Shown here in pieces: positions 1 to 8,348 of a stretch of DNA of 64,000 nt. The position numbers and the translations under genes were made by a program. The notes beneath the pieces are model-generated. The model did no database searches. It was given only the letters and a program-made list of their open reading frames with translations, and was not told where the DNA came from. Source of the DNA: Moheibacter sp. (GTDB lineage Bacteria > Bacteroidota > Bacteroidia > Flavobacteriales > Weeksellaceae); contig DATJBZ010000012.1 in assembly GCA_035515075.1 (NCBI GenBank), forward strand, positions 2,360-66,359. The letters run 5' to 3'. Position 1 is the stretch's first letter; every line of letters begins with the position of its first letter.

Positions 1-1229
1 ATTTAGATGGTTTCCAATACGCAGGCAACCAATTGCAGTTTTTCCCAACAGCAGAAGGCTATGTCAAAGCAACACCTACAGACAGAACCAAAACAAACTA
101 TCATTTTAATTACATCTACAACTATACCGATCATTTGGGCAACGTAAGACTAAGCTACACCTTGGATCCGCAAGCTGGAACGCTACAAATCGTAGATGAG
201 AACCACTACTACCCTTTTGGCTTACGGCACGAAACCCACTACCCATCAGGAAACAAAAAAGACTTTAGAACAAACATAGGAGATGTTGGTTTTGAACCTG
301 TAAATTTGGTATTGGTCACCAGTACAGAATATAATTATAAGTATAATGGATTTGAGTATCAAGATGAGTTGGATTTGAATTGGTACGACTACCAAGCAAG
401 AAACTACGACCCAGCAATTGGTAGATGGATGAACATCGACCCACTGGCAGAAATGAGTAGAAAGACATCGCCTTATGTATATACACTCAACAACCCTGTT
501 TTCTTCATCGACCCAGATGGGATGATGGCAGAAGCAAGTAGTGATAAATCAGGGAGTGACTCTAACAATTCAAGTTCTGGTGAAAATCAGATAAGCTTAG
601 GTATTGCAGGAATAAAATTGGACTTGAATCAAAAAGTAGGTGCTGTTAGCCATGTTAATTATGATGGTGGAAATAGTGGAGATAGTAGCAATGATAAGTC
701 TTCTGAGAAAAATGAAGCAGACTCACCTGCGGAAAGTCCAGATAATGGGGATCCCGAAAAAGAAACACAAAAATCTACAAATTCTGAACGTAATCCTTAT
801 AGCCCACCTCGAGCCGATGGTATTAAGTTTGGAATAGGTTTCTCTTTTAATGGTGTTTTTTTTCGTGGAGATTTCTCATTAGCAATTGCTATTACAGGTG
901 GTGAAATAGGGCTAGTTCCAGAATACTCTGGAGGAATGGGATTAACACTTGCTCTACCTGGAGTAGGGGTAGAAGGTTTTCTTACTCACTATAGTATATC
1001 AGAAGGAGGTAATTTCATGCAATCGATTAGTGGTGAGGCTACCAACACAACTACTAATGCTGTAATTGGCAGCTATACTCATTCTTCTTCTTCAAATGCA
1101 AATGGTTATACTATTGGAATAGGACCAAAAGTTTTTGGCTCAAACTTTGGTTTCAGTCAAACAACGTCTAAATCAGCAGTAATATCAACTTCAGGAATTT
1201 ATGATTTTAATGGTAAGAAGAAAAATTAA
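1..1229 (+). CDS. Rhs/YD-repeat polymorphic toxin, C-terminal end (5' part lies upstream of the window) with a Gly/Ser-rich variable C-terminal domain
   Basis: The reading frame is open from position 3 (LDGFQYAGNQLQFFPTAEGY...). It carries the Rhs core-end signature YDPAIGRWMNIDP...NNPVFFIDPDGMM (ends ~527), followed by an unrelated ~230 aa tail. The core is paralogous to 2618-3156 and 4437-4766. Confidence 0.85.
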   Translation, partial: LDGFQYAGNQLQFFPTAEGYVKATPTDRTKTNYHFNYIYNYTDHLGNVRLSYTLDPQAGTLQIVDENHYYPFGLRHETHYPSGNKKDFRTNIGDVGFEPVNLVLVTSTEYNYKYNGFEYQDELDLNWYDYQARNYDPAIGRWMNIDPLAEMSRKTSPYVYTLNNPVFFIDPDGMMAEASSDKSGSDSNNSSSGENQISLGIAGIKLDLNQKVGAVSHVNYDGGNSGDSSNDKSSEKNEADSPAESPDNGDPEKETQKSTNSERNPYSPPRADGIKFGIGFSFNGVFFRGDFSLAIAITGGEIGLVPEYSGGMGLTLALPGVGVEGFLTHYSISEGGNFMQSISGEATNTTTNAVIGSYTHSSSSNANGYTIGIGPKVFGSNFGFSQTTSKSAVISTSGIYDFNGKKKN

Positions 1230-1239
1230 GTATTTCATC

Positions 1240-1602
1240 ATGATTTTAATAATCTTTCACATCATATCATGTGATCAAGATTGCAATAAGTATAGAGATT
1301 TATTTATTGAGAACGAGTGTAATGTAATTTTATCTAAAGATTATACTGATAATCAACCAGAGTTCATGATTGTAAAAGGAATTAATCCAAATACAAAAGA
1401 AAAATGCAAATGTCAAGATAATGTAAAAAATTGGTATTTTTATAATGGTTATATGGAAAAAGGAGATACTTTAGTAAAAAGGAAAGGGGATGATTTTTAT
1501 AAAATTCATAAAAAAGATACAATCTTTATTATTTATTATGGAGAATGCAATAATTATAATCAGTACGTAAGAATAAACAATAATCCACCAAAAACAAATT
1601 AA
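1240..1602 (+). CDS. small Cys-rich lipoprotein, candidate immunity protein for toxin domain 1
   Basis: The ATG at 1240 lies 11 nt after the rhs stop. Short signal peptide with lipobox-like HIISC. The position directly downstream of an Rhs toxin tip fits an immunity gene. Confidence 0.45.
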   Translation: MILIIFHIISCDQDCNKYRDLFIENECNVILSKDYTDNQPEFMIVKGINPNTKEKCKCQDNVKNWYFYNGYMEKGDTLVKRKGDDFYKIHKKDTIFIIYYGECNNYNQYVRINNNPPKTN

Positions 1603-1607
1603 ATAAT

Positions 1608-2036
1608 ATGAAGAAAGTACCAATAATTTTCTTTTTTTTAATTTTTGTATCATGCAAATTAAATTCAGAAAATGAAAACTTATTAGAAAATAAAAAAGAA
1701 GGAGAAAAAATCATGAATATTTTTTTTAATAATATTGTTTCTAATAATTTCAAGGAGAATAAAAAATTTCTAAGTAAGTCATTTTTAGATTATCCAGGAA
1801 CTAAGCAATTTGAAAAAGATCAAAATCTCATAAAAATAAAATTAGGAAATATAACAAATATTAATTTATTGTATTCAGAAACTACAATTTCAACTAAGAT
1901 AAATTCATTTCCTGAATATATTTATGAATACAATATTGAAAGAGAAAAGAAAAACTCTATAGAAACATATTTTTTGATAAAAGAAAATGACTCATTAAAA
2001 ATTAAAGATTATAAAATAGAATATTTAAACGAATGA
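1608..2036 (+). CDS. small lipoprotein, possible second or orphan immunity protein
   Basis: Signal peptide MKKVPIIFFFLIFVSC (lipobox), very AT-rich, tightly packed after the previous ORF. Confidence 0.4.
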   Translation: MKKVPIIFFFLIFVSCKLNSENENLLENKKEGEKIMNIFFNNIVSNNFKENKKFLSKSFLDYPGTKQFEKDQNLIKIKLGNITNINLLYSETTISTKINSFPEYIYEYNIEREKKNSIETYFLIKENDSLKIKDYKIEYLNE

Positions 2037-2055
2037 AATAGGCAATGCACCCAAC

Positions 2056-2256
2056 TTAGTGACACAGTAAAATCAAGGATGTAACCAATTGATTTTGAGT
2101 AAGGATTAAAACAAAACCAAGAATTATAAGAGCTGGTATTTCCTGCTCTTTGTATTTTTGAATACTTTAAATCGTTTAAAATGGAGAAAAATAAAAGTTC
2201 GTGTATCAGATTGAGGTGTTTTCATTGAAAACAAAACATTCGTTATATTTATCCAT
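2056..2256. repeat. cassette-junction element, copy A (201 bp)
   Basis: Aligns without gaps and at roughly 90% identity by eye with 4102-4302. Both copies sit between an immunity ORF and the next orphan rhs cassette. Confidence 0.85.
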
Positions 2257-2268
2257 TCAATTCAAGAT

Positions 2269-3822
2269 TTGACAACAAGACAATACACATATCAGTTTAT
2301 TCCTACTCACGCAACAGTGAATGGCTCTGATGGCTTCAAAGACGGAAATACCAACCCCAATTTGAATGATTATGAGTACGATGACAATGATTTTCGAGTA
2401 AAAAAGATTGAGAATCTTTTTTGCGAAGAAAGCGAGCGTAGCTCAATGATTTTGGACCGAAAAAAAGGCATCGAAAGCATCACTTACAACCACCTGAACT
2501 TACCTACTAAAGTTAGTTGGTCAAACACTAAATACATTAATTATCAGTACAATGCCGCAGGGCAAAAAGTATCCAAAACAGTTAGAATAGATGCTGATTC
2601 CATCAAAGTTGTAGATTATTTAGATGGGTTTCAATACACAGGGAACCAATTGCAGTTTTTCCCAACAGCAGAAGGCTATGTCAGAGTAAATGCTGATAAA
2701 CTCCAATCATTTCGTACGTATAACTATGTCTATAACCACACCGATCATCTTGGAAACGTACGATTGTCCTACTCCAAAGACCCAAAAACAGGAGAATTGG
2801 AAATTTTGGAAGAAAACCACTACTACCCTTTCGGATTGAAACATGGAGTGTATACGGCTGCTACTTTGAAAGACTTTAGAATAGATGAAATGGGAACAGA
2901 TGCTGTGCCTGGAGGAGGCATGGGAGAGGTTGCTTTGATCAATGTCACTAAAACGGAGTATAATTATAAGTACAATGGGAAGGAGCTTCAAGATGAGTTG
3001 GGGCTTGGGTTGTACGATTATGGATGGAGAAATTACGATCCCGCAATTGGAAGATGGGTCGTTATTGATCCTAAAGCTGAAATAGGGAGACCCTATTCTC
3101 CGTATAATTATGCCTTAAATAATCCTGTTTATTTTATTGATCCTGATGGAATGATGTCTGTAAGTAGCATTCAAGAAATGTGGGATAATACAACATCTTC
3201 AAGCACATGGGTTAATAATGGAGATGGTACTTATGAAGGAGGAGAAAATGAATCGGATTCAGTTGAAAATGGACAATCGGAAGATTGTTGTCCTAATGGA
3301 AAAGGTTTCTTGAAAGGTTTAGCAAATTCTGTTATTGACATAACAATAACAAGTAATCCAATAACAAGTTTAATTGAACAAGGTGGACAATTAATTAATT
3401 CCGATTTTGAACTTATACCTAGATTTAGTGTGGAAGAGGGTGAGCAAGTTGGATATTATGCTGGTATTATTTTATTTGCGATAGTAGAACCTTCGCCTGG
3501 CGGAGAAATAAATGCTATAAAAATATTAATTAAGGGAGGAAAAGCCACTAAAATTACCAAGGCAGTAAATTCTAATTTACAACATGCGATTGACCAAAGT
3601 CTACTTCCTGATAGAAACGTTTTTAAAAATGCAGATGAGGCTAGAACAGCTCTTGAAGCTCTAACAAAACAGGTGGGAACTAATAAACTTCCTGCTGGAA
3701 CAATTATTGACCCTTCTAAAACAGATAGAATATTAGTTCCTGTCGGAAATAACGGTATGGCGGTCTATCAAATAGGTAGTAATGGTACAGCTAAAATAAA
3801 AACAGTATTAGTAGCAAAATAA
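2269..3822 (+). CDS. orphan Rhs C-terminal cassette 2 (about 295 aa of Rhs core tail plus a distinct C-terminal toxin domain)
   Basis: Contains ITYNHLNLP, LDGFQYTGNQLQFFPTAEGY and YDPAIGRWVVIDP...FIDPDGMM (ends 3156), then a unique ~220 aa tail. The only start is TTG; there is no in-frame ATG near the 5' end. Confidence 0.75.
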   Translation: MTTRQYTYQFIPTHATVNGSDGFKDGNTNPNLNDYEYDDNDFRVKKIENLFCEESERSSMILDRKKGIESITYNHLNLPTKVSWSNTKYINYQYNAAGQKVSKTVRIDADSIKVVDYLDGFQYTGNQLQFFPTAEGYVRVNADKLQSFRTYNYVYNHTDHLGNVRLSYSKDPKTGELEILEENHYYPFGLKHGVYTAATLKDFRIDEMGTDAVPGGGMGEVALINVTKTEYNYKYNGKELQDELGLGLYDYGWRNYDPAIGRWVVIDPKAEIGRPYSPYNYALNNPVYFIDPDGMMSVSSIQEMWDNTTSSSTWVNNGDGTYEGGENESDSVENGQSEDCCPNGKGFLKGLANSVIDITITSNPITSLIEQGGQLINSDFELIPRFSVEEGEQVGYYAGIILFAIVEPSPGGEINAIKILIKGGKATKITKAVNSNLQHAIDQSLLPDRNVFKNADEARTALEALTKQVGTNKLPAGTIIDPSKTDRILVPVGNNGMAVYQIGSNGTAKIKTVLVAK

Positions 3823-3827
3823 TATTT

Positions 3828-4079
3828 ATGTCAGAAAAAATAATAACATTAACAAGAGGGGTTGAAATCAATAAAATAACTTTAGAGGAAGATGCTATAG
3901 CACATATAGAGATGAGAGAAGAAAGTATTTTATTAGTTAAAAGAAAAAGCAATAAACATTCTACTTTTAAAAAGCAAGTATGGCTATCTGACTTAATCGA
4001 AAATTACATTGGGCCAAGTATCTATTTAGATTTAGATGAAAAAAATAATTTGATAAGAATTGAAATTTTAGAAGATTAA
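3828..4079 (+). CDS. small cytoplasmic protein, candidate immunity for toxin 2 (DUF2283-like C-terminus)
   Basis: 83 aa, starts 6 nt after the cassette 2 stop. The C-terminal IYLDLDEKNNLIRIEILED resembles the DUF2283 signature as I remember it. Confidence 0.5.
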   Translation: MSEKIITLTRGVEINKITLEEDAIAHIEMREESILLVKRKSNKHSTFKKQVWLSDLIENYIGPSIYLDLDEKNNLIRIEILED

Positions 4080-4101
4080 AGATAATGGTAATGTATCAAA
4101 G

Positions 4102-4302
4102 TTAGTGACGCAATAAAGTCAAGGGTGTAACCAATTGATTTTGAGTAAAAGTTAAAATAAAACCAAGATTTATAAGGGCAGGGATTTCCTACGTTTTGTA
4201 TTTTTGAATGCTTTCAATCGTTTAAAATGGAGAAAAATAAGAGTTCGTGTATCAGAGTGAGATATTTTCATTGAAAACAAAACATTCGTTATATTTATCC
4301 AT
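4102..4302. repeat. cassette-junction element, copy B (201 bp)
   Basis: Paralogue of 2056-2256 in the same position relative to the next orphan cassette. Confidence 0.85.
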
Positions 4303-4305
4303 CTT

Positions 4306-5478
4306 ATGAATGATTTAACAAAACAGCAAAACCACAGCACTACGTGCGCAAATTTCGATTTGGAAATACTCAATTTCCAAAATCTCAGCACTACGTGCGC
4401 AAATTTCGATTTGGAAATACTCAATTTCCAAAATCTCATTTGTCCTTTCGGATTGAAGCATGGGGTGTATACGGCTGCTACTTTGAAAGACTTCAGAATA
4501 GATGAAATGGGAACAGATGCTATTCCTGGAGGAGGCATGAGAGAGGTAGCTTTGATCAATGTCACTAAAACGGAGTATCAGTATAAGTACAACGGTAAAG
4601 AGCTTCAGGATGAGTTGGGGCTTAACATGTATGACATGGACATGAGGCAGTATGACCCTGCCATTGCGAGGTGGGTGGTGCAAGATCCTGTTACGCATTT
4701 TGATTTTTCACCATATAATGCTTTTGACAACGATCCTGTTTTCTGGGCAGATCCAAGTGGAGCAGATGCTACTTCTTTAATACAAGATATTTGGAATAAA
4801 TCTAATGCGAATGAAAATACATTATGGTTAAATAATAATAATGGAACTTTTTTGGGAAGTAATGGAAAATCAGCTGATTGCGACGTTTGCACAACTTCTA
4901 CATCAAAACTGACTCATACTTTTAGTCCTGAAGGGTTCAATTATAAAAATAAAGAAGGGGAAAGAGGAGATGCAAATGACGGTAGTGATATTATAGAGTA
5001 TAAAGTTCAAGTTGTTACTAAAAACGAAAAGGGAATGGTAACATCTTCTGTTCTTATAACATATTTTTTCTCTGTTAATCGAGGTGGTTCTCATGAAAAT
5101 ATAGTTCCAGGAACAATGTATATAATGGGGGTTTATGATCCTGTTAATGTCTCATTTAATATAGATAATCCAGTCACCCCCTATGAGAAAGAATTAGCTG
5201 AATACATATCATATGTATCAAGTTATAGTAAAAAATACAATAGTAGTATTTTAGACGAAATAGCTACATACAATTATTATCTAGAAAAAAATAAAGAAGG
5301 GCCGTATAAAACTCAAGATATGATAAATAAAGTAAGTTCTGCTGCTAAATTGTTCGGTAAGCACGGCAGGATGGTGGGAGGTGCAGGAAATTTTATCAAT
5401 ACGATATTAAAAAACCAAAATCAATCCTCTAATCTTCATGGTGTAAAAGTAGGAATAGTTAATGAAAATAAACTTTAA
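4306..5478 (+). CDS. orphan Rhs C-terminal cassette 3 (short Rhs core tail plus a third distinct toxin domain)
   Basis: ATG start. 4437-4620 is ~90% identical at the DNA level to 2826-3009 (PFGLKHGVYTAATLKDFRIDEMGTD...). Core end is YDPAIARWVVQDP...FWADPSGAD (~4766), followed by a unique ~235 aa tail. Confidence 0.7.
   Translation: MNDLTKQQNHSTTCANFDLEILNFQNLSTTCANFDLEILNFQNLICPFGLKHGVYTAATLKDFRIDEMGTDAIPGGGMREVALINVTKTEYQYKYNGKELQDELGLNMYDMDMRQYDPAIARWVVQDPVTHFDFSPYNAFDNDPVFWADPSGADATSLIQDIWNKSNANENTLWLNNNNGTFLGSNGKSADCDVCTTSTSKLTHTFSPEGFNYKNKEGERGDANDGSDIIEYKVQVVTKNEKGMVTSSVLITYFFSVNRGGSHENIVPGTMYIMGVYDPVNVSFNIDNPVTPYEKELAEYISYVSSYSKKYNSSILDEIATYNYYLEKNKEGPYKTQDMINKVSSAAKLFGKHGRMVGGAGNFINTILKNQNQSSNLHGVKVGIVNENKL
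4335..4436. repeat. perfect 51-bp tandem duplication (2 copies), each copy carrying an 8-bp inverted repeat
   Basis: cagcactacgtgcgcaaatttcgatttggaaatactcaatttccaaaatct occurs twice back to back. Inner hairpin is TTGGAAAT-actca-ATTTCCAA. In frame it gives STTCANFDLEILNFQNL twice. Confidence 0.95.
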
Positions 5479-5483
5479 TAATT

Positions 5484-6026
5484 ATGAAGAAAAGTACAAA
5501 TTTGATAAAGATTTTATGGACAATTCTATTCATTTGCACTCTTTTATTTTTTTATTTTTCCAACGTTAATGATTTATATTTTCAAGAAGATATCATTAAT
5601 TTTGAAAATAGAATAAAGAACATTAAATTTCTATTTTATATAGTAGTTCCATTTATTTACATTATAGTATTGCTATTGATTGATTACAAAGACATTTTTA
5701 AAAAAAATAATTTTGTTTTTTATTTAGTTGTATTTATAATTTTATTTTTTCTATCACATAAATCCATTTTAAATGGATGTTTAATTCTAAATAAAAAATT
5801 TACTACTACAGAAAAAATTGAAAGAAAACATTACTTTAAAATCTATAATGAAAAATTACTATTATATGATCAATTTGCTTACTTAAAAGAATTTAATTTT
5901 CCAGAAAATGTTGATATGATTAAGTTAGAAAAATCTTCATCTTGTTTAGTTATGTTTAAAGTAGGTTATTTTGGCATTCCATTTAACCCTATAATAACTT
6001 CCTTAATACCAAAATCAACAATGTGA
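5484..6026 (+). CDS. polytopic membrane protein, candidate immunity for toxin 3
   Basis: 180 aa, starts 6 nt after the cassette 3 stop. Three to four hydrophobic helices visible (ILWTILFICTLLFFYF, FLFYIVVPFIYIIVLLLI, FVFYLVVFIILFFL). Confidence 0.45.
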   Translation: MKKSTNLIKILWTILFICTLLFFYFSNVNDLYFQEDIINFENRIKNIKFLFYIVVPFIYIIVLLLIDYKDIFKKNNFVFYLVVFIILFFLSHKSILNGCLILNKKFTTTEKIERKHYFKIYNEKLLLYDQFAYLKEFNFPENVDMIKLEKSSSCLVMFKVGYFGIPFNPIITSLIPKSTM

Positions 6027-6193
6027 ATGCGTCGATTGCATACATAGACACAGCCCCAAACCCAGGTAATAATTATTGGAACAATGATTTATTCTCGTTC
6101 AAAATCAATTACAATACGATAGAAAATGAACTCAATGCCAAGACAGAAGCATTGTACAACGGCAACATCGCTCAGACCTTTTGGCGAACAGTA
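6023..6193 (+). pseudogene. Rhs core fragment (about 57 codons) truncated by IS insertion
   Basis: Translates to VNASIAYIDTAPNPGNNYWNNDLFSFKINYNTIENELNAKTEALYNGNIAQTFWRTV*, a YD-repeat-like block (LYNGNI..TFW). It stops at the left end of the IS remnant. Confidence 0.55.
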
Positions 6194-6251
6194 TAATACC
6201 TCGACAAATTAGTACCAGTGTTTAAGTTGAAAATTTTATTAATTTTAAACA

Positions 6252-6440
6252 ATGGAAAACATGAAAAGAACACGCAGGAAATTTAGCAGTGAATTTAAAT
6301 CACAGGTAGCCATAGAGGCTTTAAAAGAACGTTATACACTCACCGAACTAGCACAGAAGTTTGAGCTTCATCCCAATCAGATCAGCCAATGGAAGCAGGA
6401 GTTTTTGGAGCGTAGCAAGAACGTTTCTGGCGTTCCATAA
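6252..6440 (+). pseudogene. IS3-family transposase OrfA N-terminal HTH fragment
   Basis: RRKFSSEFKSQVAIEALKERYTLTELAQKFELHPNQISQWKQEFLE is the typical IS3/IS911-type HTH. The ORF ends prematurely. Confidence 0.7.
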
Positions 6441-6583
6441 AGTATAGACATATCTATTTAAACCCCGCCAACGATGGAATCGAGTTATTCAGAGGAATAA
6501 TGATTTGGATCGATAAGTACAATAATAGAAAACACCAAGGAACAGGTCAAAAACCTATTTCAAGATACCAAAAAGCAGCATAA
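6440..6583 (+). pseudogene. IS3-family transposase OrfB (integrase core) C-terminal fragment
   Basis: KYRHIYLNPANDGIELFRGIMIWIDKYNNRKHQGTGQKPISRYQKAA* matches the usual rve C-terminal tail (W...YN..R.H..L.g.tP). It lies in a different frame from the orfA piece. Confidence 0.55.
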
Positions 6584-7043
6584 ATGTCAATTAAGAAAAA
6601 CTTATTACTGGTCTAAGAAATCGAGGTAGTATAGAGTTTCCATCATGATCATTCAAGAATTTCAAAAGAAAAATTAAAAATTATGGATGAAATTCTGAAA
6701 TTATTATTAAATGAATTAGAAATTTCAGTGAACTTCATTGAGCTAAACTAAACCTAATGAATCCATCAAAAGTCAATTATGTGAATGGCTTTTTTCTCTA
6801 AATATATTTAGTGAAACAAGCGTCCATGATATCCATATAAAAAATCTCTCTTGACGATGTGTTGGGATTTCTTCGTCAGAAGAGATTGGAGATTAACAAG
6901 GAAGAGGTTGAATTCATTATGGGAATTTCTCCAATTCACCGAATGCATACTCCATAGATAGTGCTTAGATACTCCGTAGATAGTGTTTGTCAATAGTTGG
7001 CTTGTAGTCCACAACCAATGTGCTTGATGCAATTTTCATTCCA

Positions 7044-7077
7044 TAAAAAAAGGAGATTCTTGTTGAAGAATCTCCTT
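7044..7077 (-). terminator. rho-independent terminator downstream of tRNA-fMet
   Basis: Perfect 12-bp stem AAGGAGATTCTT/AAGAATCTCCTT followed on the minus strand by a T7 run. Confidence 0.65.
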
Positions 7078-7083
7078 ACTTAG

Positions 7084-7156
<73 letters not shown>

Positions 7157-7199
7157 ATTTGGACTGCAAATATAGAAACAATATTTTAAACCACCAAAC

Positions 7200-8348
7200 T
7201 TATATTGGAATGGGTGGGTTATTTTCTATGAAATTCACCACAAGTTCTGGATCATCAGTGAGATAGAGTAGTTCTTTATATTTTCTGCCTACGGCCAATT
7301 GATGCAAAACGGAGTACAAAGCGGTGTCTTCGGTGTATCTTTTCTTGCCTAGAAAGATCATTGGACTGTAAAAGCCGAAAGTGCCATAGTGGTTTTGTGC
7401 AGCTTCTTGGAAAATTTCTTGGGTAGTTCCTGCGCTGCCTGGCGCATAAACAATTCCATACAGACAAATCGCCAAAAGAATGTCCTCACGGATGCTGTTG
7501 GAAAAGTACTTGGCAATGTCACAAGCAAACAAATTGGAAGGTTCATGACCGTAAAACCAAGTCGGAATCGCCAAGCTGGAGGTGCCATCTGGAAACTTTT
7601 CTAAGACGGTCAATGATTGTTCGAAATAATTGGACACCAAATAATCCATTTGGTCCTCGCTGTCATACTTTAAATCGCTTAAAAGTAAAATGGCATCCAC
7701 CAAGTCCTCTTCTGAGTATTTGGCCATGTAAGCGCCTAAATTTGCTGCCTCCATGATGCCAGGTCCACCACCAGTTGCGATATAATAATCTTTTTGCGCC
7801 AACTCTTGCGCAGCCAAGGCCACTTTGACATAATATTCCGAACCTCTTTTTGTGGCATGTCCGCCCATGAAGCCGACGATTTTCTTTTGTGTCATGCCGA
7901 AATCATCGTATTCGATCAAGTTTCTCAACGCAACATCAATCGAATAATCATGGATCCGCTGTGCCATGGCTTCTTCCATCGAAGGCGTGTACTTGTTTTT
8001 CATGAAATGTTGGTAAATCTTGAAATCGGGGCTTTCCGCCATGTTGGTTAAATTCTCGCCCATCAATTCTTGCCAAGTGTACAATTCTGTTCGATGGGGT
8101 TGAAAAGGCAATCCCGCAAATTTTGGGTAGACCAAAGCACCATTGCTGATCAAGTAAATCGCTTCTTCTTTGTGGAAATCACAGCCTAAGAAAGTGGTGG
8201 ATTGAATATTGTATTTTGTCCAATCAACTTGTAGAGGAATGAAATCGATGTTTTGGAAAACTTTTCCTTTCAAATTGAGGGTGTGTGCAACCAGTTCATT
8301 CCATTCTTGGGTTGAACGGATCAAGTTGATAAATCTTCTTAATGACAT
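7200..8348 (-). CDS. LOG-family (lysine-decarboxylase-like / nucleotide nucleosidase-like) protein with an N-terminal extension
   Basis: GGGPGIMEA and PGSAGTTQEIFQ (PGGxGTxxE-like) motifs. The start was moved to MSLRRF (8348) to avoid overlap with corA. Confidence 0.7.
   Translation of the reverse strand: MSLRRFINLIRSTQEWNELVAHTLNLKGKVFQNIDFIPLQVDWTKYNIQSTTFLGCDFHKEEAIYLISNGALVYPKFAGLPFQPHRTELYTWQELMGENLTNMAESPDFKIYQHFMKNKYTPSMEEAMAQRIHDYSIDVALRNLIEYDDFGMTQKKIVGFMGGHATKRGSEYYVKVALAAQELAQKDYYIATGGGPGIMEAANLGAYMAKYSEEDLVDAILLLSDLKYDSEDQMDYLVSNYFEQSLTVLEKFPDGTSSLAIPTWFYGHEPSNLFACDIAKYFSNSIREDILLAICLYGIVYAPGSAGTTQEIFQEAAQNHYGTFGFYSPMIFLGKKRYTEDTALYSVLHQLAVGRKYKELLYLTDDPELVVNFIENNPPIPI

What the first reader, a model, noticed from the sequence alone, without database searches (positions are those of the whole stretch)
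2056..4302. Conserved 201-bp junction element precedes each orphan rhs cassette
2056-2256 and 4102-4302 align without gaps at roughly 90% identity, although the flanking immunity genes are unrelated. In both copies the element ends 4-13 nt before the orphan ORF start and lies in the same frame as that ORF (…FIENKTFVIFIH-x3-DLT…). It contains a 15-codon mini-ORF (MEKNKSSCIR[LV]R[CY]FH*, at 2181-2228 and 4227-4274). Copy A also has a terminator-like hairpin (AGAGC-tggtatttcct-GCTCT followed by T-rich sequence). Both copies have an AT-rich TAtaTTTa box near the 3' end that resembles the Bacteroidetes -7 promoter element (TAnnTTTG). Non-coding spacers between unrelated cassettes are not expected to be conserved unless they act as internal promoter/terminator units, recombination substrates, or a shared leader.
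Basis: seen in the sequence. Interest (0 to 1): 0.62.

Follow-up and report, generated by a model that had tools for sequence, protein, structure and literature searches.

The report
IS1 remnant between rhs toxin cassettes
The repeated 200-bp "junction element" is the decayed left end of an IS1-family insertion sequence (terminal repeat, hairpin, transposase promoter and first ten codons) joined to a short conserved box. Intact relatives of this insertion sequence sit at the same place in rhs toxin-gene arrays across Bacteroidota.

Summary
The repeat is real: 2056-2256 and 4102-4302 are 180/201 identical without gaps, against 27% for random pairs. It actually spans 2041-2286 and 4087-4332. It is not a dedicated spacer.

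Positions 2041-2210 and 4087-4256 are the left end of an IS1-family insertion sequence:
- a terminal inverted repeat matching E. coli IS1 ends at 17/23 positions;
- the family's canonical 140-nt leader with a terminator-like hairpin;
- a TAnnTTTG box;
- the first 10 codons of the transposase gene.

In Weeksellaceae MAGs the same sequence runs straight into a 237-aa IS1 transposase (NCBIfam NF033558, 183 bits).

The remaining 3' part (2211-2286) holds a 29-nt box identical in both copies. In another metagenome contig this box stands upstream of a truncated rhs without any IS. Its origin is unresolved. A native rhs promoter or leader is my preferred reading.

The hairpin has decayed in copy B, so the IS part looks neutral. 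Of 80 IS1-family loci from Bacteroidota genomes, 39 lie within 5 kb of rhs cores, and all 57 rhs hits are on the transposase strand. The junction role is therefore recurrent. A promoter or recombination role is plausible but untested.

The parts
2041..2063 (+). IS1-family left terminal inverted repeat (IRL), copy A: GGCAATGCACCCAACTTAGTGAC
   Evidence: Aligns with the IRL of full IS copies in L028/L006, L086/L016 and L027. Matches E. coli IS1A IRL and IRR at 17/23 positions. Repeat identity starts here.
2064..2128 (+). IS 5' untranslated leader, copy A
   Evidence: Homologous to the IS leaders of Weeksellaceae MAGs. The IRL-to-ATG distance is 140 nt here and 138-140 nt in 37 of 39 IS loci.
2129..2149 (+). 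Terminator-like hairpin of the IS (AGAGCTGG-tattt-CCTGCTCT), followed by a T-run
   Evidence: Folds at -9.9 kcal/mol, z = -3.2. A hairpin in the same position occurs in about 54 of 56 IS relatives, with many different stem sequences, at -9 to -21 kcal/mol against -2 to -5.5 for shuffles.
2153..2160 (+). TATTTTTG, matching the Bacteroidetes -7 promoter consensus TAnnTTTG; presumed transposase promoter
   Evidence: Read directly from the sequence. Invariant in all aligned IS copies and remnants. Promoter activity is inferred, not tested.
2181..2210 (+). First 10 codons of the IS1-family transposase gene (MEKNKSSCIR); the mini-ORF 2181-2228 is this stub running to the next stop
   Evidence: In L005/L006 the same sequence continues into a 237-aa ORF. 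That ORF matches Pfam DDE_Tnp_IS1 at 9e-25 and NCBIfam NF033558 at 182.7 bits. Alignment A4 shows divergence after ...GTGTATCAGA.
2211..2227 (+). Deletion or recombination joint; filler of unknown origin
   Evidence: Homology to the IS stops here and homology to the IS-less locus L026 begins at about 2228. Copies in L023-L025 share the same joint.
2228..2256 (+). 29-nt box GAAAACAAAACATTCGTTATATTTATCCAT, identical in both copies; contains TATATTTA (2244-2251)
   Evidence: 29/29 identical between copies A and B. Present in L023-L026. In L026 and in an abundant strain of run X1 it lies next to an arsC-like gene with no IS left end. No variants at 10% or more in runs X1, X3, X4 and X5.
2257..2330 (+). 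Weakly conserved lead-in to orphan 1 (the putative TTG start at 2269 lies inside it)
   Evidence: 60% identity to copy B over 2257-2286. 2228-2328 aligns to the IS-less locus in X1 and L026. No protein homologue for its translation.
4087..4109 (+). IRL, copy B: GGTAATGTATCAAAGTTAGTGAC
   Evidence: Contig joints in X1 and X3 land at 4086/4087.
4110..4226 (+). IS leader, copy B, with decayed hairpin (4175-4195) and TATTTTTG box (4199-4206)
   Evidence: (-4.9 kcal/mol, z = -0.3).
4227..4256 (+). First 10 codons of the transposase, copy B (mini-ORF 4227-4274)
   Evidence: tblastn 10/11 identity to the L006 transposase N-terminus.
4257..4332 (+). Joint (4257-4273), identical 29-nt box (4274-4302) and weakly similar lead-in (4303-4332), copy B
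2269..3822 (+). Orphan rhs cassette 1: 5'-truncated core, Rhs_assc_core domain and C-terminal toxin region
   Evidence: NCBIfam TIGR03696 at 2e-17, aa 228-295. ORF listed.
3828..4079 (+). Presumed immunity gene of orphan 1; its stop lies 7 nt before IRL B
   Evidence: Weak DUF2283/TriTu hits. Co-transcribed with the toxin region in metatranscriptome X21, in another genomic context.
4306..5478 (+). Orphan rhs cassette 2; core homology starts only at about 4440, after a 51-nt tandem repeat
   Evidence: TIGR03696 at 2.2e-15, aa 89-152.
1608..2036 (+). Lipoprotein-like ORF (second gene after the main rhs toxin region); its stop lies 4 nt before IRL A
   Evidence: Logan contigs carrying it end inside the repeat.

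Best explanation
The junction element is a composite.

IS part. Its first ~170 nt (2041-2210; 4087-4256) are the left end of an IS1-family insertion sequence that lost almost all of its transposase gene by deletion. What remains is the terminal inverted repeat, the 140-nt leader with the hairpin that in intact copies sits just upstream of the transposase promoter, a TAnnTTTG box, the ATG and ten codons.

3' part. The stub is joined to about 45-75 nt that include a 29-nt box conserved in every copy seen. This part also occurs without the IS directly upstream of a truncated rhs gene in a related organism. It is therefore most likely native 5' (promoter/leader) sequence of an rhs cassette rather than IS DNA.

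History. All composite copies share the same joint, so one ancestral 'IS stub + box' unit arose once. It was then spread to several cassettes by recombination within and between rhs arrays.

Shown: the IS identity, the architecture, the shared joint and the recurrence of IS1-family elements at rhs cassette junctions.

Inferred: the IS part is now mostly neutral baggage. It may still act as portable homology, and its promoter, or the 29-nt box, may transcribe the downstream orphan toxin/immunity genes.
For: - Direct continuity of the element with a full transposase gene in L005/L006.
- Transposase family: Pfam DDE_Tnp_IS1 at 9e-25 plus HTH_Tnp_IS1; NCBIfam IS1 family transposase at 182.7 bits against a cut-off of 100.
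- blastn of the element to the IS left ends of L006, L016 and L007 gives 77-83% identity over 130-181 nt, ending at 2210/4261.
- The IRL matches E. coli IS1A ends at 17/23 positions.
- IRL-to-ATG is 140 nt, as in 37 of 39 relatives.
- The hairpin is conserved by structure, not sequence, across about 54 of 56 relatives.
- The hairpin is decayed in copy B. Element identity (89.6%) equals that of the neighbouring rhs core repeat (90.6%).
- The same composite stands after different immunity genes in L023/L025. It carries an extra internal deletion in L024.
- The 29-nt box occurs without the IS in L026 and in X1's abundant strain.
- Other IS1 stubs sit at other rhs junctions: L026, two more junctions; L003/L004.
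- 39 of 80 IS1-family loci have rhs core within 5 kb, and 57 of 57 rhs hits are on the transposase strand.
Against: - No full-length IS copy is present in the window.
- No right inverted repeat and no target-site duplication could be found, so the insertion event itself cannot be reconstructed.
- The origin of 2211-2286 is not settled. It shows weak, non-significant resemblance to IS 3' ends ending in ...TTTATCC.
- The perfect conservation of the 29-nt box, and the retention of hairpin + promoter + ATG in several independently deleted remnants, could mean that part of the element is under selection.
- No transcription data bear on it. The RNA runs were uninformative.
Confidence: 0.85

Rival explanations
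1. Exapted regulatory module. The IS stub has been kept because its hairpin terminates transcription from the preceding cassette, and its transposase promoter (or the 29-nt TATATTTA box) drives the downstream orphan toxin/immunity genes. That would keep orphan immunity expressed. This adds to the IS origin rather than excluding it.
For: - The hairpin + TATTTTTG + ATG block is the best-conserved IS part: 92% over 2146-2210 against 85% over 2066-2145.
- L024 lost 55 nt of leader but kept that block.
- The 29-nt box is invariant in all copies and contexts.
- The orphan start codons lie 4-13 nt downstream of the repeat.
- Small low-depth RNA contigs cover 2219-2316 and 4098-4246 in X22.
Against: - The hairpin is broken in copy B.
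- Other junctions keep only an IRL stub with no promoter (L003/L004, third junction of L026).
- The RNA evidence is at depth 2-7 in a metatranscriptome and may be DNA carry-over.
- No 5'-end data exist.
Confidence: 0.25
2. The whole 2041-2256 unit is a non-autonomous MITE-like derivative of the IS: both ends kept, the interior deleted, and moved in trans by full-length copies to sites after immunity genes.
For: - Internally deleted IS1-family elements with a recognisable right end (...TTTTTACATAGCAAACC, like L006 ...TTTTTGGCATAAACC) do occur at two junctions in L026.
- The unit ends in ...TTTATCC, as do the 3' ends of the Flavobacterium IS subfamily.
- In L024 the left flank also ends in ...CATTTATCC.
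Against: - No sequence in 2195-2330 or 4241-4376 matches the reverse complement of the IRL above shuffled controls.
- There is no target-site duplication at either window copy.
- An nhmmer profile of six IS 3' ends does not hit the region, and local alignments are within the null range.
- The 3' part occurs alone next to an arsC-like gene.
Confidence: 0.1
3. A single recent segmental duplication of one spacer, with no wider meaning.
For: Only two copies exist in the window. Both have the same internal joint and are about 90% identical, like the adjacent core repeat.
Against: - The sequences on both sides of the two copies differ: unrelated immunity genes upstream, and joins to the rhs core at different positions downstream.
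- Further copies stand after other immunity genes in three metagenome contigs.
- Parts of the element occur in 20 public runs from soil, groundwater, gut, manure, sludge and food-production samples.
Confidence: 0.03
4. A structured regulatory RNA or leader peptide specific to rhs orphans (riboswitch-like leader, attenuator).
For: A short ORF plus a hairpin upstream of a gene resembles an attenuator layout.
Against: - Rfam finds nothing in 1-8000 except a tRNA.
- The ORF is the N-terminus of a transposase.
- The hairpin lies upstream of the promoter-like box and of the ORF, not between the ORF and the gene.
- The hairpin is decayed in copy B.
Confidence: 0.02

Closest known systems
IS1 family insertion sequences (type element: E. 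coli IS1A, 768 bp)
   Same: - Terminal repeat GGTAATG..CAA(C/G)TTA.TGA matches at 17/23 positions.
- The transposase of the full-length relatives hits the IS1 models for zinc ribbon, HTH and DDE domains.
- Small size, about 0.9 kb.
   Different: - The Bacteroidota relatives encode one continuous ORF rather than insA/insB with a frameshift.
- They have a 140-nt leader with a strong hairpin.
- The window copies keep only the left 170 nt, with no right repeat and no target duplication.
H-rpt (ISAs1-family) components of E. coli Rhs elements (Zhao et al. 1993, recalled from memory, not checked here)
   Same: An IS-like element is a recurrent built-in component of rhs loci, lying downstream of the core extension and its small ORF.
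   Different: It belongs to a different IS family and a different phylum. Here the IS is co-oriented with rhs and sits exactly between cassettes, often directly followed by the Rhs_assc_core tail.
Orphan rhs tips produced by C-terminal displacement (Jackson et al. 2009, PMC2935791); rhs arrays with many orphan tips in Weeksellaceae such as Ornithobacterium hominis (PMC13183296)
   Same: A main rhs gene is followed by 5'-truncated core + toxin + immunity cassettes in the same orientation.
   Different: Those descriptions do not mention an IS at the junctions. Here every junction examined in this lineage carries an IS1 stub or the 29-nt box.
MITEs and solo IS ends
   Same: Short non-coding remnants of an IS that persist as dispersed repeats and can carry promoters or terminators.
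   Different: A MITE needs both ends and target duplications. Neither was found here.
Integron attC sites and recombinase-associated immunity gene arrays of Bacteroidales (rAID; recalled from memory)
   Same: A conserved repeat sits between unrelated cassettes of an interbacterial-conflict array.
   Different: There is no tyrosine recombinase nearby and no attC-like imperfect palindrome. The repeat is demonstrably an IS end.

Membership tests
IS1 family insertion sequence | Encodes an IS1-type transposase (InsA-like zinc ribbon/HTH plus DDE_Tnp_IS1) | tested here: inconclusive
   The window copies keep only 10 codons (tblastn 9-10/11 identical). The contiguous full-length homologue in L006 matches NF033558 at 182.7 bits against a cut-off of 100, and PF03400 at 9e-25. 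The window copies therefore derive from a member but are not functional members.
IS1 family insertion sequence | Terminal inverted repeat of the IS1 type at the left end | tested here: met
   GGCAATGCACCCAACTTAGTGAC and GGTAATGTATCAAAGTTAGTGAC match 17/23 positions of the E. coli IS1A IRL and IRR. They align with the IRL of the Bacteroidota IS copies.
IS1 family insertion sequence | Matching right inverted repeat | tested here: not met
   The best match of the reverse-complemented IRL in 2195-2330 and 4241-4376 scores within the shuffled range.
IS1 family insertion sequence | 8-9 bp target-site duplication | tested here: not met
   The flanks of 2041/2256 and 4087/4302 share no direct repeat (read). 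The right boundary is uncertain.
MITE (non-autonomous IS derivative) | Both IS ends retained, with target duplication and multiple dispersed copies | tested here: not met
   No IRR and no duplication. The copies seen are all in rhs arrays.
Rhs orphan cassette (the genes that the element precedes) | RHS repeat-associated core domain followed by a variable C-terminal region and a small downstream gene | tested here: met
   TIGR03696 at 2e-17 (orphan 1) and 2.2e-15 (orphan 2), and also in the main rhs 3' end. Small ORFs follow each. Toxin and immunity activity were not tested.
Bacteroidetes sigma-A promoter (-33 TTTG / -7 TAnnTTTG) | -7 box TAnnTTTG with a -33 TTTG about 19-21 nt upstream, and a mapped start site | not testable with these tools
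   TATTTTTG (2153-2160) fits the -7 consensus. TATATTTA (2244-2251) fits 7 of 8 positions. No convincing -33 was seen. The promoter scanner offered covers only sigma-70-type sites, and the RNA runs gave no 5' ends.
Intrinsic terminator | G+C-rich stem-loop followed by a T-run | tested here: inconclusive
   Copy A: -9.9 kcal/mol with one T-T mismatch, followed by TTTGTATTTTTG. Copy B is decayed. Intact IS relatives fold at -13 to -21 kcal/mol with A-rich and T-rich flanks. Termination was not measured.

The most novel reading that the evidence does not exclude
IS1-family elements are not accidental residents of Bacteroidota rhs arrays but part of the cassette-exchange machinery.

The unit [toxin tip - immunity - IS1 - short leader - Rhs_assc_core tail] would travel as a block. 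It would give an incoming toxin/immunity cassette a second homology arm (the IS and/or the core tail), or a transposase-made joint. Each acquisition would then push the old tip downstream as an orphan that starts at a fixed core position.

The stub in this window would be a fossil of that process. It may also supply the promoter that keeps orphan immunity genes expressed.
Probability: 0.3. Interest if true: 0.65.

Novelty: new member of a known kind. Interest (0 to 1): 0.38.

Why it matters
For annotation, the two "conserved spacers" should be labelled as IS1-family remnants. The mini-ORF should not be called a gene or a leader peptide.

For biology, the wider pattern is the part worth following. 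Half of the sampled IS1-family loci in Bacteroidota sit in rhs arrays, always co-oriented with rhs. In five Flavobacterium species they are fused through the same ~70-nt leader to the Rhs_assc_core tail of cassettes with different toxins.

If the IS supplies homology, joints or promoters, it would explain how orphan toxin/immunity arrays are built and kept expressed in this phylum. I found no description of this in the papers searched.

Tried and rejected
- Rfam scan of 1-8000: only a tRNA.
- Exact 22-mer from the 5' part in GTDB genomes: one chance hit in an unrelated Flavobacterium hydrophilum gene.
- Copy number from run X1: I first read depth 2000-2400 over 2145-2189, against 25 for unique sequence, as 80-100 copies. 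I withdrew this when the 183x contig proved to be a single-copy locus of a more abundant related strain.
- The 3' part as IS right end: blastn-short, shuffled local alignments, an IRL reverse-complement scan and an nhmmer profile of six IS 3' ends were all non-significant.
- The 3' part as Rhs N-terminus or core: its translation has no protein homologue.
- RNAalifold on a MAFFT alignment of IS leaders gave no structure, because the hairpins were out of register.
- Metatranscriptomes X21 and X22: the orphan-1 toxin and immunity genes are transcribed, but in another context, and there are no usable 5' ends over the element.
- Fetching the closest transposase contig (P0001, L027) did not define the right end of the window's subfamily.
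- Integron-like, attenuator and segmental-duplication readings were considered and rejected (see rivals).
Full report
**Observation.** The window opens in the 3' end of a main rhs gene (to 1229). This is followed by two small ORFs (1240-1602, 1608-2036) and repeat copy A. Then come orphan rhs 1 (2269-3822), a small ORF (3828-4079) and repeat copy B. After that come orphan rhs 2 (4306-5478), a small ORF (5484-6026), an rhs fragment and IS3 remnants. NCBIfam finds the RHS repeat-associated core domain (TIGR03696) in all three rhs pieces.

The claimed repeat is real. It is 180/201 identical without gaps, against 26.8% +/- 3.4% for random 201-mer pairs, and there are only two copies in the window. 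Its true extent is 2041-2286 and 4087-4332. Identity is 86% over 2041-2210, 100% over 2228-2256 and 60% over 2257-2286.

**What it is.** A degenerate pattern from the centre of the repeat hit one GTDB contig, a Weeksellaceae MAG. There the same sequence lies just after an rhs immunity gene: GGTAGTGTTTCAAAGTTAGTGATAC..., hairpin, TATTTTTG...AAAATGGAGAAAGATAAGAGTTCGTGTATCAGA. It runs on into a 237-aa ORF. That ORF is an IS1-family transposase (Pfam DDE_Tnp_IS1 at 9e-25, HTH_Tnp_IS1; NCBIfam NF033558 at 182.7 bits against a cut-off of 100).

blastn aligns window 2053-2210 and 4085-4261 to the left ends of three such IS copies at 77-83% identity. A multiple alignment shows colinearity from the terminal repeat through codon 10, then abrupt divergence. 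The terminal 23 nt match both ends of E. coli IS1A at 17/23 positions. The distance from terminal repeat to ATG is 140 nt in both window copies and 138-140 nt in 37 of 39 relatives.

The "mini-ORF" is therefore a truncated transposase start. The "terminator-like hairpin" is a standing feature of this IS group. About 54 of 56 relatives have a strong stem-loop (-9 to -21 kcal/mol; shuffles -2 to -5.5) ending 25-40 nt before the ATG. The stems have many different sequences and A-rich/T-rich flanks. In the window the hairpin is weakened in copy A (-9.9) and lost in copy B (-4.9, z = -0.3). The element is no better conserved than the neighbouring rhs core repeat (89.6% against 90.6%). The IS part thus looks like decaying mobile DNA.

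**The 3' part.** Homology to the IS ends at 2210. A metagenome scan with the invariant 22-mer found four contigs.
- Two carry the same composite, with the same joint, after a different immunity gene and before a copy-B-type orphan.
- One has the composite with a further 55-nt deletion.
- One (L026) has the 3' part alone. It lies about 110 nt from a divergent arsC-like gene and is fused to a truncated rhs core.

The same IS-less locus is the 183x contig of run X1. All tests for an IS right end were negative: no inverted-repeat match, no target duplication and no profile hit. The translation has no protein homologue.

I therefore read 2228-2330 as native 5' sequence of an rhs cassette, and its invariant 29-nt box (with TATATTTA) as a candidate promoter. 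I keep about 25% for an IS-derived 3' region, because several IS subfamilies also end in ...TTTATCC.

**History.** The shared joint means the "IS stub + box" unit arose once and was then copied to different cassettes. Its joins to the rhs core differ:
- copy A at ...QFI|PTHATVNGSDGFKDGN;
- copy B after a 51-nt tandem repeat, at YYPFGLKHG;
- L026 at YSKDPQTG.

Other junctions carry other IS1 stubs. Two more occur in L026 with different deletions. In Logan contigs from other samples, a 32-nt terminal-repeat stub is fused to the main-rhs toxin region at window position 803. Recombination and deletion around IS1 ends are thus common in these arrays.

**Wider pattern.** I searched GTDB genomes with the transposase alone, and so without bias toward rhs.
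- 17 and then 80 loci were returned.
- 39 of the 80 have rhs core within 5 kb, across Flavobacterium, Chryseobacterium, Moheibacter, Pedobacter, Paludibacter, Microbacter, Chitinophagales and Bacteroidales.
- All 57 rhs hits are on the transposase strand.
- The core typically ends a median 1378 nt before the transposase ATG, which leaves room for a toxin tip and an immunity gene.
- At six junctions in five Flavobacterium species, the IS is followed by the same ~70-nt leader. The rhs piece starts at the same point, the beginning of the Rhs_assc_core domain. It then continues into unrelated toxin regions.

Some of these loci may be orthologous, so the counts overstate the number of independent events. 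The co-orientation and the fixed junction are nonetheless striking.

**Mechanism.**
- Shown: IS identity, architecture, shared joint and recurrence at junctions.
- Inferred: the IS inserted next to, or was carried with, rhs cassettes. Deletions then removed the transposase. The stub persists because it is neutral, or because it offers homology for cassette shuffling and/or a promoter for the orphan genes.

No transcription evidence could be obtained.

**Literature.** The papers searched describe rhs orphan arrays, including in Weeksellaceae, and C-terminal displacement, but none mentions IS1 at the junctions. The closest precedent I know is the H-rpt (ISAs1-like) component of E. coli Rhs elements. 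I recall this from memory and did not check it.

**Verdict.** The element is a new member of a known kind, an IS1-family remnant. The IS1-rhs linkage across Bacteroidota is a lead worth a proper census.

Noticed in passing
window 2390-2455: An in-frame insertion of about 66 nt in the rhs core of orphan 1 (DFRVKKIENLFCEESERSSMIL), containing a perfect AAAAAAGATT/AATCTTTTTT hairpin. The same insertion is in a cassette at the end of L026. Other copies in runs X1, X3 and X22 lack it (joints 2389->2455/2458/2478). It may be a small mobile hairpin element inside coding sequence.
   Followed up: partly
window 4327-4428: A 51-nt tandem repeat (2 copies, 96% identical) with an internal inverted repeat TTGGAAAT...ATTTCCAA. 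It forms the 'N-terminus' of the orphan-2 ORF. L023-L025 have a single copy.
   Followed up: partly
window 6023-6640: A fragment of the early-to-middle part of an rhs core (6023-6196) abuts the last immunity gene with no junction element. It is followed by IS3-family transposase remnants (6252-6580), which are multi-copy in run X1. A tRNA lies at 7084-7156 (-).
   Followed up: no
L003 193-262, L004 19-55 (Logan contigs): In other samples the distal half of the main-rhs toxin region (from window 803) with its two downstream genes is preceded by a 32-nt IS1 terminal-repeat stub instead of the rhs core. The same cassette therefore exists in both 'main' and 'orphan' positions.
   Followed up: partly
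L006 3019-3041 and all IS relatives (transposase codons 7-13): A direct copy of the terminal-repeat motif (GTGTATCAGAGTTAGTGATAC against IRL GTTTCAAAGTTAGTGATAC) lies inside the transposase gene, 160 nt from the end. The deletion in the window copies starts exactly there (2210/2211).
   Followed up: no
L063, L070, L083, L017, L020 (upstream of the IS): Two or three partial terminal-repeat stubs stand in tandem immediately before the complete IS (e.g. GGTAATGTGGTAATGTATCAAAG...). This suggests repeated insertion or abortive events at existing IS ends.
   Followed up: no
L040, L043 (x2), L049, L059, L106: In five Flavobacterium species the IS 3' end, a ~70-nt leader and the start of the Rhs_assc_core tail (LVKxVxNPYKYKYNGKELQDELGL) are nearly identical, while the toxin regions that follow are unrelated.
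   Followed up: partly
L007 890-1400, L008 660-1270: Downstream of the IS in two Weeksellaceae/Flavobacteriia MAGs there are repeated ~300-nt units (GGATAAACATACCCATTTGTCAAA..., with a GC-rich hairpin). Their nature is unknown.
   Followed up: no
run X1: The soil-metagenome run that holds the window strain at about 25x also holds a related strain at about 183x with an IS-less version of the locus. Depth ratios in this run are therefore not copy numbers.
   Followed up: yes
window 3130-4078 in run X21: The toxin region of orphan 1 and its immunity gene are present at 99% identity in a compost metatranscriptome but with different flanks on both sides. The cassette is therefore expressed in another organism or context.
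   Followed up: partly
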